A stretch of 64,000 nucleotides of DNA from Sandaracinaceae bacterium (GTDB lineage: Bacteria; Myxococcota_A; Polyangia; Polyangiales; JAFGIB01), in the NCBI GenBank assembly GCA_017881055.1, contig JADGRF010000225.1, positions 9,486-73,485 on the forward strand, written 5' to 3'. The notes below the pieces were generated by a model. It was not told the DNA's origin, searched no databases, and was given only the letters and a program-made list of their open reading frames with translations. Positions 25,713 through 30,573 of the stretch are shown one piece after another. Every line of letters starts with the position of its first letter. The stretch's first letter is position 1. The position numbers and the translations under genes were made by a program.

Positions 25713-26525
25713 ATGCTGCTTTCAGGCTCCATTCTAGATCGTGCGCCGGGCCGCACCTATACGACCACGCTTGGCTTTGCGGAGCTTTCGCTGCGCGCGC
25801 CGCTGCCCCGCGCAGCCACACTCACCGCGTGGCGCAGTGCGCTGCCCAAAGACTTCGCGCTCGCATTGCGCGCACCCAAGAACGCCGTTGTTTCGGCGAA
25901 AGGCCCGCTGCGCGTCGATGCGGCCGTCGAAGCGTCGTTAGCCTGGGTTCTCGAAGCTGCACAGGCCCTCGAAGTACGCGCGGTCGTGTTCGCGACTCCG
26001 GCCGACCTCACCCCCGGCGGTCGGTCGCAAGACTTGCTCGCGAGCTACGTCGAGCGTCTGCCGAAGGTGCCGAACCGCCACTACGTCTGGGCACCACGCG
26101 GCGTCTGGGAGCCCGAAGACACCGAACCGCTGTGCGCGAAGCTCGGCCTTTCGCGCGCGTTCGATCCGCTCGAGACACCGCGCCCTGCCGGGCCATTCGT
26201 CTACGCGGAGCTGCGCGCGCTCGGACATCGCAAGAGCTTCTCGCAATCTGCGCTGCAGGACGCGCTCGAAGTCATTGCCAGCGAAGAGTACGACGAAGCG
26301 TTCATCAGCGTAGATGCCGAGCGCGGCTTCGACGTCGCCAAGCGCATCATGAAGATCGCCGCCGAGCTGGGTCTGGCCGATGGCTCCGCCATCCCCTCAC
26401 GCGAGCGCTCGCCCGACGGTGAAGGCGGAGACGACGACGAACACGAGCGCGAAGACGACGAAGACAGCGACGAAGACGACGAAGACGACGAAGACAGCGA
26501 AGACGAGGACGACGACGAAACATGA
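25713..26525 (+). CDS. DUF72-like protein with strongly acidic C-terminal tail
   Basis: 270 aa with loose DUF72-like colinearity (WRSALPKDFALALRAPK, VVFATPADLTP). The last roughly 40 aa are almost all Asp/Glu. The stop overlaps the next ATG (ATGA). Confidence 0.5.
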   Translation: MLLSGSILDRAPGRTYTTTLGFAELSLRAPLPRAATLTAWRSALPKDFALALRAPKNAVVSAKGPLRVDAAVEASLAWVLEAAQALEVRAVVFATPADLTPGGRSQDLLASYVERLPKVPNRHYVWAPRGVWEPEDTEPLCAKLGLSRAFDPLETPRPAGPFVYAELRALGHRKSFSQSALQDALEVIASEEYDEAFISVDAERGFDVAKRIMKIAAELGLADGSAIPSRERSPDGEGGDDDEHEREDDEDSDEDDEDDEDSEDEDDDET

Positions 26526-27892
26526 CGCCGATCGCGCGGCTCCACGGAGCGCGCATTCGACGCATCGACGCGCCGAGCGACGAGCTCCTCACCCTGACCC
26601 TCGCCACGCCCACCTACAAAGGCGTGCTGGTCATTTCGCTCGCTCCAAAGACACCCGGCGTGGGGCTCGTTGCCAAAAGGCCGCACGGCCAAAGCGCCAG
26701 CGCGTTCGTGTTGAAGCTGCGCAAAGAGCTCGCCGGCGCGCGCATCGAAGCCTTCAGTGAGTCCGCCGACGCGCGCCTCGAGCTGCACGCGCTGCGCGGT
26801 GACGGAACCAAACGCCTGGTCGTCGATTTCGCGGCACGACCGTCGCCGAACATCGCGCTGCTCGATGCCGAAGCGCACGTGCTCATCGCGCTGCGCCCCG
26901 CGTCGAGCAGCTCGGCAGGACGGCTGTCCACGTCTCTGCCGTGGCCTGCGACGATCGAAGCCCTCGAAGCAGCCGGCGCCGCGCTACTCGTCGACAGCGA
27001 AAGCTCGGCGCTCGAGGCACGCCGCGTGGCGCTGCTGCGCGGTGTCACCGCGGTCGACAAGCGCATCGCGCGTAAGCTGGAAAGCATGGCAGCTGACGCC
27101 GCACGCGCAGATCAAGCTCCCGAGCTGCGCTCCCGCGCCACCCTCTTGCTCTCCCACCTCGGACAAATCCCGCGCGGGGCGCGCAGCGTGAGCCTCGTCG
27201 ATTACACGCTCGATCCCCCGGGAATCGTCGAGATCACGCTCGATCCCGCACAAGACGCGCGCAGCCAAGCCGAGGCGCTGTTTCACCGCGCCAAGCGCTT
27301 CGAGCGCGGCGCAAAGATCGCGATGGAACGCGCAATCGCCGTGCGCGCCGAACGCAACGAGCTCGCGCTGCTACGCGACGCGCTCTTATCCGCCACCGAC
27401 ACCGAAGCGCTCGACGCCCTCGCCACGACCGCGAAGAAGCTGGGCGTCACCCCACGCGAAGCCCCTTCGGAGGCGAAAACCAAGCACGCGCCCAAGACCC
27501 GCCAGCCCTACCGCGAGTTCCACGGCGCCGAAGACCGCACGATCCTGGTCGGCCGCGGCGCCGCCGACAACGACGAGCTCACCCTGCGCCACGCCCGCCC
27601 GCACGACCTATGGCTGCACGCCCGCGACACCTCCGGCGCCCACGTCATAGTCCCCCTCGATCGAGGCGAAGCCTGCCTGCCCGATCTCCTACGCGACGCC
27701 GCCCTCTTGGCTGCCCACTTCAGCTCCACCCGAGCCGAAGCCGTGGTCGACATCGTCTACACCCCCCGCCGCTACATCACCAAACCCAGGGCGTCGGCCC
27801 CCGGCTCCGTCCGAGTAGAACGCGAAAAAGTCTTCCGCCTCCACCAAGACCCCCCACGCCTCCAGCACCTACTAACAACCGAACCCAAATAG
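26522..27892 (+). CDS. NFACT-family protein with DUF814/NFACT-R domain
   Basis: 456 aa. The C-terminal region ILVGRGAADNDELTLRHARPHDLWLHARDTSGAHVIV is the typical DUF814 core. Confidence 0.75.
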   Translation: MTPIARLHGARIRRIDAPSDELLTLTLATPTYKGVLVISLAPKTPGVGLVAKRPHGQSASAFVLKLRKELAGARIEAFSESADARLELHALRGDGTKRLVVDFAARPSPNIALLDAEAHVLIALRPASSSSAGRLSTSLPWPATIEALEAAGAALLVDSESSALEARRVALLRGVTAVDKRIARKLESMAADAARADQAPELRSRATLLLSHLGQIPRGARSVSLVDYTLDPPGIVEITLDPAQDARSQAEALFHRAKRFERGAKIAMERAIAVRAERNELALLRDALLSATDTEALDALATTAKKLGVTPREAPSEAKTKHAPKTRQPYREFHGAEDRTILVGRGAADNDELTLRHARPHDLWLHARDTSGAHVIVPLDRGEACLPDLLRDAALLAAHFSSTRAEAVVDIVYTPRRYITKPRASAPGSVRVEREKVFRLHQDPPRLQHLLTTEPK

Positions 27893-27964
27893 CAGCCCCA
27901 CGCCAAGCGCGCCCGAAGGGCCGCGCGCCCCCCGGACGCACTCTCCCCACCGGTCAAGCGCGAG

Positions 27965-28071
27965 CCGATTTGCCTCGCAGAGCGAGCGCGCCCGCAGCGC
28001 GGCGAGGGAGCCGTACTCCCGTACGTGACCGAGCCAAGCGAGGACGTAAGCCGCTCTGCGAGGCAAAGCGG
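27965..28071. repeat. palindrome-flanked intergenic repeat, copy 2 of core Y (inverted)
   Basis: 16-bp perfect inverted repeat tttgcctcgcagagcg / cgctctgcgaggcaaa (27969-27984 / 28052-28067, extendable by 3 bp after one mismatch) encloses a 67-nt loop homologous to 20698-20801 in reverse orientation. Confidence 0.7.
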
Positions 28072-28091
28072 CCGCGCGTATCAGGTCGCTT

Positions 28092-28143
28092 AAAAAGCGC
28101 ATCGCCGCTGGCTTGGGGTTAACCAAGCCAGCGGCGCATGCGC
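28092..28143 (-). terminator. intrinsic terminator of the Lys/Ala-rich gene
   Basis: On the minus strand: GCGCAT-G-CGCCGCTGGCTTGG, loop TTAACC, CCAAGCCAGCGGCG-ATGCGC, followed by TTTTT (28096-28092). It begins about 30 nt after the stop at 28172. Confidence 0.7.
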
Positions 28144-28171
28144 GGCCGCTCAAGTTTCGAGAGCAAGGCTC

Positions 28172-28452
28172 TCAATTTGCGGAGGGGTTGGTTGCGGCTG
28201 ACGCGAAGCTCGTCGTTTCTGACGATGCCTCCGCCCCAATCGGCTCAGGTTGACTCACCGCTTCAACCTTCGCGGCCTTCTTCCTCTTCGCAGGGCTAGC
28301 CTTTTTTGCGGCCTTCTTGGCTTTGCCCTTAGTAACCGGCTTCTTAGCCTTGGCTACTTTTTTTTTGCGGCCTTACGCTTGCCGCCCTTACGCTTCTTCG
28401 CGGCCTTTTTAGTGGCCTTCTTCGCTGCCTTCTTACGCTTTTTCGCTGCCAT
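28172..28452 (-). CDS. Lys/Ala-rich histone H1-like basic protein, continuous only with a -1 shift (or one extra A) at an A9 run
   Basis: AGGAGG lies 8 nt upstream of the ATG at 28452. Frame 0 gives 32 aa (MAAKKRKKAAKKATKKAAKKRKGGKRKAAKKK) and then TAG at 28356-28354. The -1 frame continues VAKAKKPVTKGKAKKAAKKASPAKRKKAAKVEAV... to the TGA at 28174-28172. Confidence 0.6.
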
Positions 28453-28783
28453 GTGATGACCCTCCTATGGTCGTAGGATGAATGCAACGTATTGTAGGGT
28501 GATGCCACGTGTCAAGCATGCAAACACATAAATTATACATAACTTATGGGTCTTTGTGCGATCAGTGGTGCGTATCATTTTCAAGCCACTGATTTTATTG
28601 GAGAATTTACGTTGCAGTGGAAGGGCCAAATTCAGCTGTGACCGCGTCGATTCACGCTTGATCACTGATCCAAGCGCCCTCTCGCACCCCAATCGTTGAC
28701 AGCGCGAAGCCCCCAGACCTAACGTCGGCCCCTCATTCACGGGTCGCGGTTCGGGCCCGTGCTTAACGAAGCGAGAAGATGCG

Positions 28784-29587
28784 ATGAACCGTTCGAAGGC
28801 AATTGCGTGCGGCCTCTTGTTGACCGTGCTGAGCGGCGTTTTCGTGGGCTGCGGCTACTCCGAGGAGGAGATGCAGGCTCAGCGCGACCGCGTGGATCAG
28901 CTGACCAAGGCGCTCGATGCGCTCGAGGGTAAGCACAAAGAGCTGCAGGACCGCTTCAAGGTGCTCAGCTCCGAAAACGCTCAGATGACGGAGCAGCTCC
29001 GCCAGATGGGCATGAACGTCGAGGATCAGAAGCGCAGCAACGACGAGATGACCAGGCTCGTCGCGGACCTGAAGGCGAAGCAGCAGCAAGCTGACGCGCG
29101 CCTGCAGACGTTCCGCAGCATGCTGGAGCGCTTCAACAAGATGATCGCGTCCGGTCAGCTGCGCGTGCGCATCGTGCGCGGCCGCATGGTCGTAGAGCTC
29201 TCGGAGAACATCCTGTTCGATTCGGGCAAAGCGGATCTCAAGCCCGAAGGTCAGGCTGCGCTCAAGGAAGTTGCGAGCGTGCTCGCGTCGATCACCGACC
29301 GCGATTTCCAGATCGCCGGTCACACCGACAACATCCCGATCAAGAGCGCGAAGTTCCCGTCGAACTGGCACCTGTCCACCGCGCGCTCGGTGACCGTGGC
29401 CGCGTTCCTCGCAGCCAACGGCGTCACGGAGACGCGCTTGTCTGCGGCTGGCTACGCCGACACGCAGCCGGCGGCTCCGAACGACACGCCGGAAGGTCGT
29501 CAGCAGAACCGCCGCATCGAGATCGTGCTCATGCCGAATCTCGACGAGCTGCCGGATCTGTCGAAGCTGAAGGACCTCACGAACTGA
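28784..29587 (+). CDS. OmpA/MotB-domain lipoprotein with coiled-coil N-terminal region
   Basis: Lipobox VFVGC, heptad-like Q/E/K-rich segment, and an OmpA-like C-terminus (FDSGKADLKPEG, GHTDNIPI, NWHLSTARS, NRRIEIVL). Confidence 0.85.
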   Translation: MNRSKAIACGLLLTVLSGVFVGCGYSEEEMQAQRDRVDQLTKALDALEGKHKELQDRFKVLSSENAQMTEQLRQMGMNVEDQKRSNDEMTRLVADLKAKQQQADARLQTFRSMLERFNKMIASGQLRVRIVRGRMVVELSENILFDSGKADLKPEGQAALKEVASVLASITDRDFQIAGHTDNIPIKSAKFPSNWHLSTARSVTVAAFLAANGVTETRLSAAGYADTQPAAPNDTPEGRQQNRRIEIVLMPNLDELPDLSKLKDLTN

Positions 29588-29595
29588 GCGAAGGC

Positions 29596-30573
29596 TTGTC
29601 CGAAGCACCTGCGCGGCTCGCGACGATCGATGTCGGCACAAACTCGGTGCTGATTCAGATCGCGCGGGCCGCAGCAGTTTCTGGGACCGGTCGGCGTGAC
29701 GAGCACGCTGAGATGGAAGTTCTCGAAGACCGCGCCACGATCACGCGCCTGGGCAAGGGCGTCGATCGGAGTCGACGACTGGACGATGCAGCTGTCGAGC
29801 GCACGCTGGCGGTGCTGACCGAGTACGCGGCGCTCGCGCGTAGCCACCGGGCGCGTATCCAAGCAGTCGGCACGAGCGCGCTGCGCGATGCCGTGAACGG
29901 CGCGGACTTCCTGGCGCGAGCGCAGGCGATTCTCGGCGTGCCGCTCGAGGTGATCAGCGGCGGCGACGAGGCCGAGCTGACGTTCCTCGGCGCGACGCAC
30001 GGCCTCGGGCTCGGCGCCGCGGCACTGTGCGTGGTCGACGTCGGCGGTGGCAGCACTGAGATTGTCCGCGCGCAGGGACAATGCGTCCTGCAGGCGACGA
30101 GCCTCGACGTCGGCGCGGTGCGCTTGCACGAGCGCCACGGCCTGACCGCGCCGGCCACGGCCGCACAGCTCGAGGCCCTCGACGCCGACGTGACACGCGC
30201 GCTCGCCGGATCGCAGGTGACACCGTGCGCGCCGCTGATCGCCATCGCCGGCACGGCCACCACGCTCGCCGCGATTGCATTCGCAGTACAACCGTATGAT
30301 CCGAAGCGCATCCACGGCGCACGTCTTGCCACCGAGCAGCTGGAAGCTCTGGCCAGCCGGCTCGCCGCGATGACGCTGGCCGAGCGCTGTGCGCTGCCGG
30401 GCCTCGCTGCGGGCCGCGCGGACGTGATCGTGGCCGGTGCGCGCGTGTTGCTCGGCGTGGTCCACGCGGCGCAAGCTCGCGAAATCATTGTGTCGAACGG
30501 CGGTGTACGGATGGGACTCGCCGTTCGTGGGCTCAGGTCGAATCCGATTGACCCGCGGCGTAGTTCTGAGTAG
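29596..30573 (+). CDS. Ppx/GppA family phosphatase, ASKHA domains only (no HD domain)
   Basis: 325 aa with TIDVGTNSVLIQI and VVDVGGGSTE motifs. TTG start lies 8 nt after the OmpA-like stop. This is the second Ppx/GppA paralog in the window. Confidence 0.8.
   Translation: MSEAPARLATIDVGTNSVLIQIARAAAVSGTGRRDEHAEMEVLEDRATITRLGKGVDRSRRLDDAAVERTLAVLTEYAALARSHRARIQAVGTSALRDAVNGADFLARAQAILGVPLEVISGGDEAELTFLGATHGLGLGAAALCVVDVGGGSTEIVRAQGQCVLQATSLDVGAVRLHERHGLTAPATAAQLEALDADVTRALAGSQVTPCAPLIAIAGTATTLAAIAFAVQPYDPKRIHGARLATEQLEALASRLAAMTLAERCALPGLAAGRADVIVAGARVLLGVVHAAQAREIIVSNGGVRMGLAVRGLRSNPIDPRRSSE

What the first reader, a model, noticed from the sequence alone, without database searches (positions are those of the whole stretch)
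28172..28452. Lys/Ala-rich histone-like gene interrupted at an A9 run that forms a dnaX-type A AAA AAG slippery heptamer directly before a 0-frame stop
A strong Shine-Dalgarno (AGGAGG, 8-nt spacing) and the ATG at 28452 open a K/A-rich ORF. It stops after 32 codons: ...GCC GCA AAA AAA AAG TAG, with the A-run at 28366-28358. The K/A-rich sense continues only in the -1 frame for 61 more codons, to the TGA at 28174-28172. That stop lies about 30 nt before a strong intrinsic terminator. The -1 frame is closed by TAA just upstream (28375-28373), so any shift must occur within the A-run. In frame 0 the run reads A AAA AAG, the heptamer used for programmed -1 frameshifting in E. coli dnaX. Runs of nine A are also known sites of transcriptional slippage, and one added A gives the same fusion. 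Three readings remain open: a two-product gene (a 32-aa basic peptide and a roughly 93-aa protein), a phase-variable homopolymer, or a homopolymer length error in the assembly. I saw only a weak upstream AAGG and no convincing downstream stimulatory hairpin.
Basis: partly seen in the sequence, partly recalled or inferred. Interest (0 to 1): 0.65.

Follow-up and report, generated by a model that had tools for sequence, protein, structure and literature searches.

The report
Conserved poly-A frameshift in basic-protein gene
A small, very lysine-rich protein gene of uncultured myxobacteria is kept one base out of frame at a run of 8-11 A's in all 20 distinct relatives examined, while both halves still evolve as coding sequence, so it very probably makes a short and a long protein by slippage at the run and is not a sequencing error or a dead gene.

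Summary
On the minus strand, AGGAGG-N8-ATG (28452) opens a 32-codon K/A-rich ORF. It ends ...GCA AAA AAA AAG TAG at an A9 run (28366-28358), the only homopolymer of 7 or more bases in the 64-kb, 66% GC window. The -1 frame continues for 61 codons to TGA 28174-28172, followed by a strong terminator.

Synteny and a leader-motif scan gave 20 distinct sequences with the run at the same position. All 20 are out of frame: 6 are one A short (A8/A9, like the window) and 14 have one A extra (A10/A11). The in-frame reading would always be KKK-V. Stops lie in both alternative frames just after the run in most sequences.

Median dN/dS is 0.10 upstream of the run in frame 0 and 0.40-0.43 downstream in the shifted frame. 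Control frames give about 1 downstream and 1.6-3 upstream. ORF2 has no usable start codon. Distant orthologues (Sorangium, Sandaracinaceae) have one uninterrupted ORF without a run, and others keep only the short peptide.

Assembly error, pseudogene and simple phase variation are therefore unlikely. The best reading is programmed recoding at the A-run, giving a 3.5-kDa basic peptide plus a minor 9.6-kDa extended form. RNA-polymerase slippage fits both polarities best, but ribosomal slippage is not excluded. I found no prior description.

The parts
28453..28567 (-). Highly conserved upstream region (promoter and leader). It has invariant blocks CAgTGATC, ATAAGTTATGTATAATTTATGTGTT, TTGACACGTGgCA, CTACAATA and TTCAT..CCTACGACCATAGGAGGGT. 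TATAAT is at 28537-28532, TTGACA at 28515-28510 and TACAAT at 28496-28491.
   Evidence: Alignment of 31 distinct leaders. The consensus RNA fold is weak (alifold -9.9). The sigma-70 consensus scan found nothing, and TTGACA and TACAAT are only 13 nt apart. The promoter assignment is therefore unresolved.
28461..28466 (-). Shine-Dalgarno sequence AGGAGG, 8 nt before the ATG
   Evidence: It is invariant in all 31 leaders.
28354..28452 (-). ORF1 (frame 0): a 32-aa, pI 12 basic peptide MAAKKRKKAAKKATKKAAKKRKGGKRKAAKKK plus the TAG stop. This is the product of standard decoding.
   Evidence: The N-terminal frame-0 median dN/dS is 0.10, with 119/119 pairs below 1, whereas the alternative +1 frame gives about 3. 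Relatives that encode only such a short peptide exist.
28358..28366 (-). A9 run, the slippage site. It reads gc-A AAA AAA AAG in frame 0, and A10 would be in frame.
   Evidence: The run is conserved at the same alignment column as A8-A11 in 20 distinct sequences, none of them in frame.
28172..28357 (-). ORF2 segment (-1 frame): GTA...TGA, 61 codons. It comprises a K/A-rich stretch followed by an acidic Ser/Thr-rich tail (QPEP...TSFAS...N). It can only be reached through a frame change within the run.
   Evidence: Median dN/dS in the shifted frame is 0.40 overall, 0.43 for the K-rich part directly after the run and 0.40 for the tail. Control frames give 0.9-1.4. The first possible start codon in the window is at codon 33, L066 has none, and L087 and L010 have one only at codons 54-56.
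28092..28143 (-). Intrinsic terminator: a 20-bp stem at 28143-28097 plus U5 at 28096-28092. It lies after ORF2, not after ORF1.
   Evidence: dG -53.2 kcal/mol, z -7.46. A hairpin is present at the same place in relatives, with different stem sequences.

Best explanation
The gene is expressed by programmed recoding at the A-run, and I commit to that model as follows.
- Standard decoding gives a 32-aa, extremely basic peptide that ends right after KKK.
- In a minority of expression events the frame changes within the run.
- The most likely cause is RNA polymerase slipping on the A/T run, which is about as long as the 9-10 bp RNA:DNA hybrid. This would make mRNAs with one more A (or, in relatives with one A too many, one fewer or two more).
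- Ribosomes sliding on AAA codons may also contribute.
- Translation then continues into ORF2 and gives a 93-aa isoform. This isoform adds a second K/A-rich stretch and a short acidic Ser/Thr-rich C-terminal tail.
- The fused protein corresponds to the uninterrupted protein of distant relatives.

Shown: the frame break at the run is conserved in either polarity. The in-frame state is absent. Both parts are under purifying selection in their respective frames. ORF2 has no start codon of its own. One terminator lies after ORF2.

Inferred: the level at which slippage occurs (transcription or translation), the ratio of the two isoforms, and the function. The function is presumably binding of a polyanion (DNA, RNA or polyphosphate) by the basic part, with the tail as a modulating or partner-binding module.
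For: (1) Twenty distinct sequences carry the run at the homologous position and all are out of frame: the window, 8 MAG loci and 11 metagenome contigs. Six are one A short (A8/A9) and 14 have one A extra (A10/A11).
(2) The in-frame reading is always AAA AAA AAA GTA. Elsewhere in these genes AAA makes up only 9% of Lys codons, and GTA is the rarest Val codon in the window (26 of 890). The nucleotide run itself is therefore under selection.
(3) In most sequences the GTAGCTAAG or GTAAGTAAG that follows the run carries stops in both alternative frames, so ORF1 ends 0-2 codons after the run in every sequence.
(4) Median dN/dS is 0.10 upstream in frame 0. Downstream in the shifted frame it is 0.40-0.43, with dS about 1 and the ORF open for 55-69 codons in all 16 sequences analysed. 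Control frames give about 1.
(5) ORF2 has no usable start codon.
(6) The terminator lies only after ORF2.
(7) With one A added, L074 and L076 align end to end with the uninterrupted Sorangium orthologues.
(8) The tree shows at least 3 switches between the 'short' and 'extra' states without a sampled in-frame state. Identical sequences from different datasets have identical run lengths.
(9) The flanking NFACT proteins are only 41-57% identical across these loci, so the arrangement is old.
(10) Precedent exists. Bacterial RNA polymerase slips efficiently on runs of 9 A/T (PMC5009743; PMC1088944). The A11 run of C. rodentium tssM1 yields transcripts with 10-15 As, and both length variants are needed (PMC4256274).
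Against: - There are no reads, RNA or protein data, so slippage itself has not been observed.
- 14 of 20 sequences need -1 or +2 nucleotides. Genome-wide data show that +1 insertions dominate in homopolymer runs and deletions are rarer (PMC5574713). In those lineages the long form would be rarer, or another mechanism such as a ribosomal +1 slip at AAA-AGU may operate.
- All data are consensus assemblies of uncultured populations, so minority in-frame DNA alleles cannot be excluded.
- One of the 20 sequences (L066) comes from an assembly that has other frame disruptions in ORF1.
- The pairwise dN/dS values are not phylogenetically independent, and the alignments are of low-complexity sequence.
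Confidence: 0.75

Rival explanations
1. Ribosomal frameshifting only. In the window this would be a dnaX-type -1 shift on A AAA AAG before the TAG stop. In the A10/A11 relatives it would be a +1 slip of tRNA-Lys on AAA-A before the rare AGU codon. RNA polymerase would make no significant contribution.
For: The window and 5 relatives have A_AAA_AAG in frame 0, directly followed by a stop. In the 'extra' group the codon after the run is the rare AGT. Ribosomes are known to slide on consecutive AAA codons (PMC4363877, listed).
Against: - No upstream SD-like element or downstream hairpin is conserved.
- Runs of 8-11 A are longer than any ribosomal shift site needs, and they match the RNA:DNA hybrid length.
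- Two different ribosomal mechanisms would be needed for the two polarities.
- AAG is 91% of Lys codons. By inference the organism has a tRNA-Lys(CUU), which is known to weaken shifting on A AAA AAG.
- The codon in the new frame, GUA, is the rarest Val codon.
Confidence: 0.15
2. Heritable phase variation. Slipped-strand mispairing during replication switches the gene between OFF (short product) and ON (long product) alleles, and the assemblies simply report the majority OFF allele.
For: Run length differs between lineages (A8, A9, A10, A11) and the polarity has switched at least 3 times. Runs of this length are mutable in DNA (PMC3711429).
Against: 0 of 20 distinct sequences are in frame, whereas neutral switching would give about one third in frame. 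Identical or near-identical sequences from different datasets have the same length. The gene is not a surface or restriction-modification type of gene. ORF2 is kept under purifying selection although it is 'OFF' everywhere.
Confidence: 0.07
3. Homopolymer length error in the assembly, or an inactivated pseudogene.
For: Homopolymers are error-prone, and one relative (L066, a long-read-style assembly) has extra frame breaks in ORF1. The window's state cannot be checked against reads.
Against: The same break occurs in 20 distinct sequences from many projects and assemblers. The direction of the supposed error would have to be clade-specific, and opposite for the same true length and left context (A9 versus A11 around an in-frame A10). 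A pseudogene is excluded by dN/dS of 0.4 with dS about 1 and by an ORF2 that stays open in all sequences.
Confidence: 0.03

Closest known systems
Citrobacter rodentium tssM1 / Yersinia pseudotuberculosis tssM (transcriptional frameshifting at a poly-A tract; PMC4256274)
   Same: The gene is interrupted by a stop just after a long A run (A11). Standard decoding gives a truncated protein. Polymerase slippage gives transcripts with 10-15 As, which yields the full-length form. Both length variants and their ratio matter. No ribosomal stimulators lie nearby.
   Different: The protein is unrelated (a large membrane protein of a secretion system). The case is known from a few enterobacterial strains. 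Here the break is conserved across a deep clade, with flanking proteins only 41-57% identical, and occurs in both polarities. Slippage has not been shown experimentally here.
Shigella flexneri spa13 / mxiE (transcriptional slippage needed for the longer product; PMC5009743, PMC1088944)
   Same: There are two overlapping ORFs. A non-templated nucleotide added in an A/T run fuses them, and a minority of product carries the C-terminal extension.
   Different: Those are plasmid-borne virulence genes in which a single polarity (+1 nt) suffices. In this family most members need -1 or +2.
Thermus thermophilus dnaX (A9 run; PMC1088944, PMC5009743)
   Same: It has an A9 run in a GC-rich genome, stops close by in both alternative frames, and two products from one gene.
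   Different: The logic is reversed. In dnaX the DNA is in frame, so the long product comes from standard decoding and slippage gives the short one. Here the DNA is always out of frame.
E. coli dnaX -1 programmed ribosomal frameshift (A AAA AAG)
   Same: The window's frame-0 reading of the run contains the same heptamer.
   Different: Neither the upstream SD-like element nor the downstream stem-loop is conserved. 14 of 20 orthologues need the opposite direction of shift. In dnaX the shift shortens the product, whereas here it lengthens it.
Bacterial histone H1-like / K-A-P-rich proteins (NCBIfam NF038053 hist_H1_lk_Burk; Pseudomonas AlgP, PMC9239181)
   Same: They share the Lys/Ala-rich low-complexity composition and a presumed affinity for polyanions.
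   Different: The model scores are 17.7-22 bits against a cutoff of 80, and only for the long intact relatives. The window's products give no hit at all. No shared domain is present, so the similarity is compositional.

Membership tests
Programmed transcriptional realignment (polymerase slippage) genes | A/T homopolymer of about 8-9 or more bases exactly at the junction of two ORFs | tested here: met
   The window has A9. The 19 other distinct sequences have A8-A11 at the same position.
Programmed transcriptional realignment (polymerase slippage) genes | The run is conserved at nucleotide level beyond what the protein requires | tested here: met
   AAA is 9% of Lys codons elsewhere in these genes, yet the run is all A in 20/20 sequences. 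The rare GTA codon follows in 20/20.
Programmed transcriptional realignment (polymerase slippage) genes | Both ORFs are under purifying selection in their own frames, and the downstream ORF lacks its own initiation site | tested here: met
   Median dN/dS is 0.10 upstream and 0.40-0.43 downstream, against about 1 or more in control frames.
Programmed transcriptional realignment (polymerase slippage) genes | A heterogeneous mRNA population with added or missing bases in the run | not testable with these tools
   No transcript or read data are available.
dnaX-type -1 programmed ribosomal frameshift | X XXY YYZ heptamer in the zero frame at the shift site | tested here: inconclusive
   A AAA AAG is present in the window and 5 relatives. 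It is absent as a -1 site in the 14 of 20 orthologues that need a +1 shift.
dnaX-type -1 programmed ribosomal frameshift | Conserved stimulators: an SD-like element about 10 nt upstream and a stem-loop 5-9 nt downstream | tested here: not met
   Only a compositional AAGG lies upstream. The predicted downstream folds differ between sequences, with z-scores mostly between -1.5 and +0.6.
dnaX-type -1 programmed ribosomal frameshift | AAG decoded only by tRNA-Lys(UUU), with no tRNA-Lys(CUU) | not testable with these tools
   The only tRNA in the window is tRNA-Leu.
Phase-variable contingency locus (slipped-strand mispairing) | Both ON (in-frame) and OFF alleles found among strains or populations | tested here: not met
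   0 of 20 distinct sequences are in frame. Minority alleles within populations could not be examined.
Histone H1-like DNA-binding proteins (NF038053; Pfam Hc1/Hc2 families) | Score above the curated cutoff of the family model | tested here: not met
   There is no Pfam hit. NF038053 scores 17.7-22 bits against a cutoff of 80 for distant intact relatives, and nothing for the window's products.

The most novel reading that the evidence does not exclude
Selection actively keeps this gene one nucleotide out of frame, in either direction, and never in frame. Run length and polarity would then act as an evolvable dial for the ratio of two isoforms of a highly expressed polyanion-binding protein. A9 needs the common +1 event, whereas A10/A11 needs the rarer -1 or +2 event. 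The two isoforms are a 3.5-kDa bare basic peptide and a 9.6-kDa form with an acidic, partner-binding or self-masking tail. This would be the first recoded nucleoid-associated-type gene, and a deeply conserved chromosomal case of programmed polymerase slippage outside dnaX, secretion systems and mobile elements.
Probability: 0.35. Interest if true: 0.7.

Novelty: new member of a known kind. Interest (0 to 1): 0.6.

Why it matters
Conserved programmed slippage in ordinary chromosomal bacterial genes is known from only a handful of cases: dnaX, a few type III and type VI secretion genes, and endosymbiont rescue. This would add a deeply conserved example in free-living, GC-rich myxobacteria, where a long A run is strongly disfavoured. 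It has an unusual evolutionary signature: lineages switch between one A too few and one A too many without ever settling in frame.

There are practical consequences too. Gene callers will annotate this locus wrongly. They will report either a 32-49-aa ORF alone or, in the A10 lineages, a spurious long ORF that starts in the promoter and reads the N-terminal part in a non-coding frame. The case also provides a clean natural system for separating transcriptional from translational slippage.

Tried and rejected
- HMMER search with the 93-aa fusion protein found no hit, because of the low-complexity bias correction.
- Exact-sequence look-ups of the flanking genes and of eight ORF1 or intact products found nothing on record. 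The one exception is a 937-bp JGI contig (sample 3300075153) that encodes exactly the window's 32-aa ORF1, but its DNA could not be retrieved. I cannot tell whether it is independent of the window.
- Pfam and NCBIfam give no family membership.
- Rfam on 27900-28900 gives only sub-threshold chance hits.
- The consensus promoter/terminator scan found nothing, although a strong terminator is present. It was probably missed because of its length and a bulge.
- A separate ORF2 gene with its own start is rejected, because no start codon is available.
- A single long ORF starting in the promoter region, possible in the A10/A11 lineages, is rejected because the dN/dS of that frame over the N-terminal region is about 3.
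- A conserved stimulatory hairpin was not found.
- RNA structure in the conserved leader is not supported: the consensus fold is weak and the conservation is at DNA level.
- The tRNA-Lys repertoire could not be assessed, because the window has only tRNA-Leu.

Full report
**Observation.** The minus strand of 28050-28600 shows AGGAGG (28466-28461), an 8-nt spacer and ATG at 28452. A 32-codon ORF follows, MAAKKRKKAAKKATKKAAKKRKGGKRKAAKKK, ending GCC GCA AAA AAA AAG TAG. The A9 run occupies 28366-28358. The -1 frame is closed by TAA at 28375-28373. It then runs open from the run through 61 codons (VAKAKKPVTKGKAKKAAKKASPAKRKKAAKVEAVSQPEPIGAEASSETTSFASAATNPSAN) to TGA at 28174-28172. One extra A gives a 93-aa fusion. 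Twenty-eight nt after the TGA lies a 20-bp stem (28143-28097) followed by U5, with dG -53 kcal/mol and z = -7.5. The run is the only homopolymer of 7 or more bases in the 64-kb, 65.8% GC window.

**Context and organism.** The gene is transcribed divergently from an OmpA-family gene (28784-29587), which is followed by a Ppx/GppA phosphatase gene (29596-30573). It converges on an NFACT-family gene (26522-27892). Using the OmpA-like protein as a handle, a scan of one genome per species returned 80 syntenic loci. Nearly all are Polyangiales, Sandaracinaceae or other Myxococcota MAGs, and the closest are 83-84% identical in that protein. Most carry a K/A-rich ORF in the same divergent position.

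**The frame break is conserved, in both polarities.** Nucleotide-level inspection showed an A-run at the homologous column in L001, L002, L008, L010, L018 and L066, and in the more distant L074 and L076. In every one of them the gene is out of frame there. The 18 bases around the Shine-Dalgarno sequence are conserved, so I used them for the single metagenome scan. Of the 42 contigs returned, 23 carry a K/A-rich gene and 13 of these carry the run, and again all 13 are out of frame.

After removal of duplicates (L010 = L088, L087 = L115) there are 20 distinct sequences:
- Six are one A short. The window, L001, L066 and L086 have A9 preceded by GC, where A10 would be in frame. L074 and L076 have A8, where A9 would be in frame.
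- Fourteen have one A extra. Twelve have A10 preceded by C, where A9 would be in frame. L087 and L089 have A11 preceded by GC, where A10 would be in frame.
- None is in frame.

The corrected reading is always ...AAA AAA AAA GTA... (KKKV). In most sequences the following bases are GTAGCTAAG or GTAAGTAAG, which contain TAG/TAA in both alternative frames. ORF1 therefore ends 0-2 codons after the run in every sequence.

**The break is not an error, not decay and not a separate gene.**

(i) Selection. In a codon alignment of 16 sequences, the region upstream of the run has median dN/dS 0.10 in the MAAKK frame (119/119 pairs below 1). The other two frames give about 3 and 1.6. Downstream of the run, the shifted frame has median dN/dS 0.40 (118/120 pairs below 1) at dS about 1, and the control frames give 0.95 and 1.15. 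The K-rich part directly after the run (0.43) and the acidic tail (0.40) behave alike. ORF2 is open for 55-69 codons in these 16 sequences, while the other frames carry 1-10 stops.

(ii) Initiation. ORF2 has no start codon before codon 33 in the window. L066 has none at all, and L087 and L010 have one only at codons 54-56. In the A10/A11 lineages the ORF2 frame happens to stay open back into the promoter region, so a gene caller could report a 128-135-aa ORF. The dN/dS of about 3 for that frame over the N-terminal region shows that it is not coding there.

(iii) The run is selected as nucleotides. Outside the run, Lys is AAG in 540 of 594 codons, and GTA is the rarest Val codon in the window (26 of 890). 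Even so, AAA AAA AA(A) GTA is present in 20/20 sequences. In 596 kb of related DNA there are 25 A/T runs of 8 or more bases, against a random-composition expectation of 1.8, and 9 of them are this junction.

(iv) Reproducibility. Identical sequences from different datasets have the same run length (L010/L088 at A10, L087/L115 at A11). Sequences 4-10% apart also share it. A systematic sequencing bias cannot explain why the same left context (GC) and the same in-frame length (A10) appear as A9 in some clades and A11 in others.

(v) Age. The flanking NFACT proteins of these loci are only 41-57% identical to the window's.

**Evolutionary frame.** A neighbour-joining tree of leader plus gene, with the run masked, shows the 'extra' state in one large clade. 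The 'short' state appears in the window, in L066+L086 and in L001. L001's closest relatives, L018 and L002, are 'extra'. L074 and L076, which were not included in the tree, are also 'short'. That makes at least three polarity switches without a sampled in-frame intermediate.

Relatives fall into three types:
- Short-only genes of 18-65 aa with the same leader, no run and no ORF2. Examples are L004, L006, L007, L009, L012, L046, L082, L098, L099, L106 and L117.
- Run-plus-frameshift genes.
- Uninterrupted long genes without a run: Sorangium L077-L080 and Sandaracinaceae L016, L020, L021, L025, L026 and L028.

With one A added, L074 and L076 align end to end with the Sorangium proteins, from MAAKKTAKKPA to GP.DESE. 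L076 then has 126 aa, against 125-126 aa in Sorangium. The Sandaracinaceae tails (PEPGSTSLLS, PEPGSTSFLT) resemble the window's QPEP...TSF. The fusion product is thus the ancestral full-length protein. The short peptide is evidently functional on its own, and the frameshift lineages encode both.

**Mechanism.** The shift must occur within the run. Three points favour RNA-polymerase slippage:
- Runs of 8-11 A are longer than any ribosomal site requires, and they match the 9-10-bp RNA:DNA hybrid. Bacterial polymerases slip efficiently on runs of 9 A/T (PMC5009743; PMC1088944).
- A single mechanism can serve both polarities. The A11 run of tssM1 gives transcripts with 10-15 As (PMC4256274).
- No SD-like or hairpin stimulator is conserved.

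One point counts against a purely transcriptional model. Insertions of one base dominate in homopolymers and deletions are rarer (PMC5574713). Yet 14 of 20 sequences need -1 or +2. In those lineages either the long isoform is deliberately rare, or ribosomal slippage on AAA codons contributes (for example a +1 slip at AAA-AGU, a rare codon, or sliding as in PMC4363877). I therefore assign about 0.75 to programmed recoding at the run, with transcription the more likely level. I give about 0.15 to a ribosome-only mechanism, 0.07 to heritable phase variation as the main mode, and 0.03 to error or pseudogene.

**Products and function (inferred).** The short form has 32 aa, 3.5 kDa, pI 12.0, 19 K+R and no acidic residue. 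The long form has 93 aa, 9.6 kDa and pI 11.2, and its last 31 residues are acidic (pI 4.05). In relatives the tail is strongly acidic (EEPDFSSDDDLLSSPN and similar). There is no Pfam or NCBIfam membership. Only sub-threshold, compositional similarity to a Burkholderia 'histone H1-like' model is seen, and only for the long intact relatives. Binding of a polyanion (DNA, RNA or polyphosphate) by the basic part is the obvious guess, with the tail as a modulating or partner-binding module. It is untested.

**Comparison with what is known.** In logic this is closest to C. rodentium and Y. pseudotuberculosis tssM and to Shigella spa13 and mxiE, where the DNA is out of frame and slippage makes the longer form. 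It is the mirror image of Thermus dnaX, where the DNA is in frame and slippage makes the shorter form, also with stops in both alternative frames. It is not a dnaX-type -1 PRF cassette, because the stimulators are absent and most orthologues need the opposite polarity. Full-text searches found no description of such a case in myxobacteria or in histone-like or lysine-rich genes, and the GeneTack survey text does not mention one. Those searches cover open-access papers only. I rate it a new member of a known kind. It has one unusual feature: both out-of-frame polarities occur among orthologues and the in-frame state is avoided.

**Limits.** All sequences are consensus assemblies of uncultured organisms. 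No reads, transcripts or peptides were available. The pairwise dN/dS values are not phylogenetically independent and come from low-complexity alignments. One of the 20 sequences (L066) has additional frame problems. The promoter was not located with confidence.

Noticed in passing
window 28453-28567 (minus strand); same region in 30 other loci: The ~115 nt upstream of the start codon are more conserved than the coding sequence across 31 distinct loci. Invariant blocks include ATAAGTTATGTATAATTTATGTGTT, TTGACACGTGgCA (a near-palindrome around CACGTG), CTACAATA and CCTACGACCATAGGAGGGT. The short-only genes and the frameshifted genes share this region. Perfect TATAAT and TTGACA hexamers are present but in the 'wrong' order, and TTGACA and TACAAT are only 13 nt apart. 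No consensus RNA fold is present. This suggests a tightly regulated promoter or operator, possibly shared with the divergent OmpA-like gene.
   Followed up: partly
window 26522-27892 (+), 28784-29587 (+), 29596-30573 (+): The synteny NFACT (RqcH-like ribosome-rescue family) / K-A-rich gene / OmpA-family gene / Ppx-GppA phosphatase is conserved in many of the loci. NFACT was found in 39 loci and Ppx in 22. A Lys/Ala-rich protein lying near a polyphosphatase recalls AlgP, the H1-like protein that organises polyphosphate granules in Pseudomonas (PMC9239181). A poly-A/poly-Lys gene lying next to a ribosome-rescue factor may be coincidence.
   Followed up: partly
L002 2481-2885, L010 2494-2877, L018 3361-3744 (minus strand of each locus): In the A10/A11 lineages the ORF2 frame stays open back through the N-terminal region into the promoter. 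This gives a 128-135-aa ORF that gene callers are likely to annotate. Its N-terminal two thirds are read in a frame with dN/dS of about 3, so it would be a systematic mis-annotation.
   Followed up: yes
L017 3244-3721 (minus strand): This groundwater MAG has three K/A-rich ORFs of 24, about 23 and about 75 aa in the same position, each with its own ATG, instead of one gene.
   Followed up: no
L005 1-200: Downstream of a short-only version of the gene (40 aa, ending KKKYIKNK) the contig end carries further long A runs (A11, A10 and two A6) in an A-rich stretch. This could be another slippage-prone continuation or a degenerate tail. The contig ends there.
   Followed up: no
L040 ~5795 and L041 ~8552: Two related MAGs share the sequence CGCTTCAACAGT-A(n)-CCTCAGTCCTGC, with A9 in one and A8 in the other. 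This is another variable homopolymer in these GC-rich genomes, unrelated to the finding.
   Followed up: no
L066 3347-3652: This MAG (an MFD long-read-style assembly labelled 'Alphaproteobacteria') has the same A9 junction, but also a 2-nt gap near the start of ORF1 relative to all the others. That is probably an assembly indel, and the taxonomic label is at odds with the myxobacterial synteny.
   Followed up: partly
JGI sample 3300075153, 937-bp contig (no DNA retrievable): A metagenome contig encodes exactly the window's 32-aa ORF1 product, including its stop position. This may be an independent sighting of the A9 state or the window's own source.
   Followed up: partly
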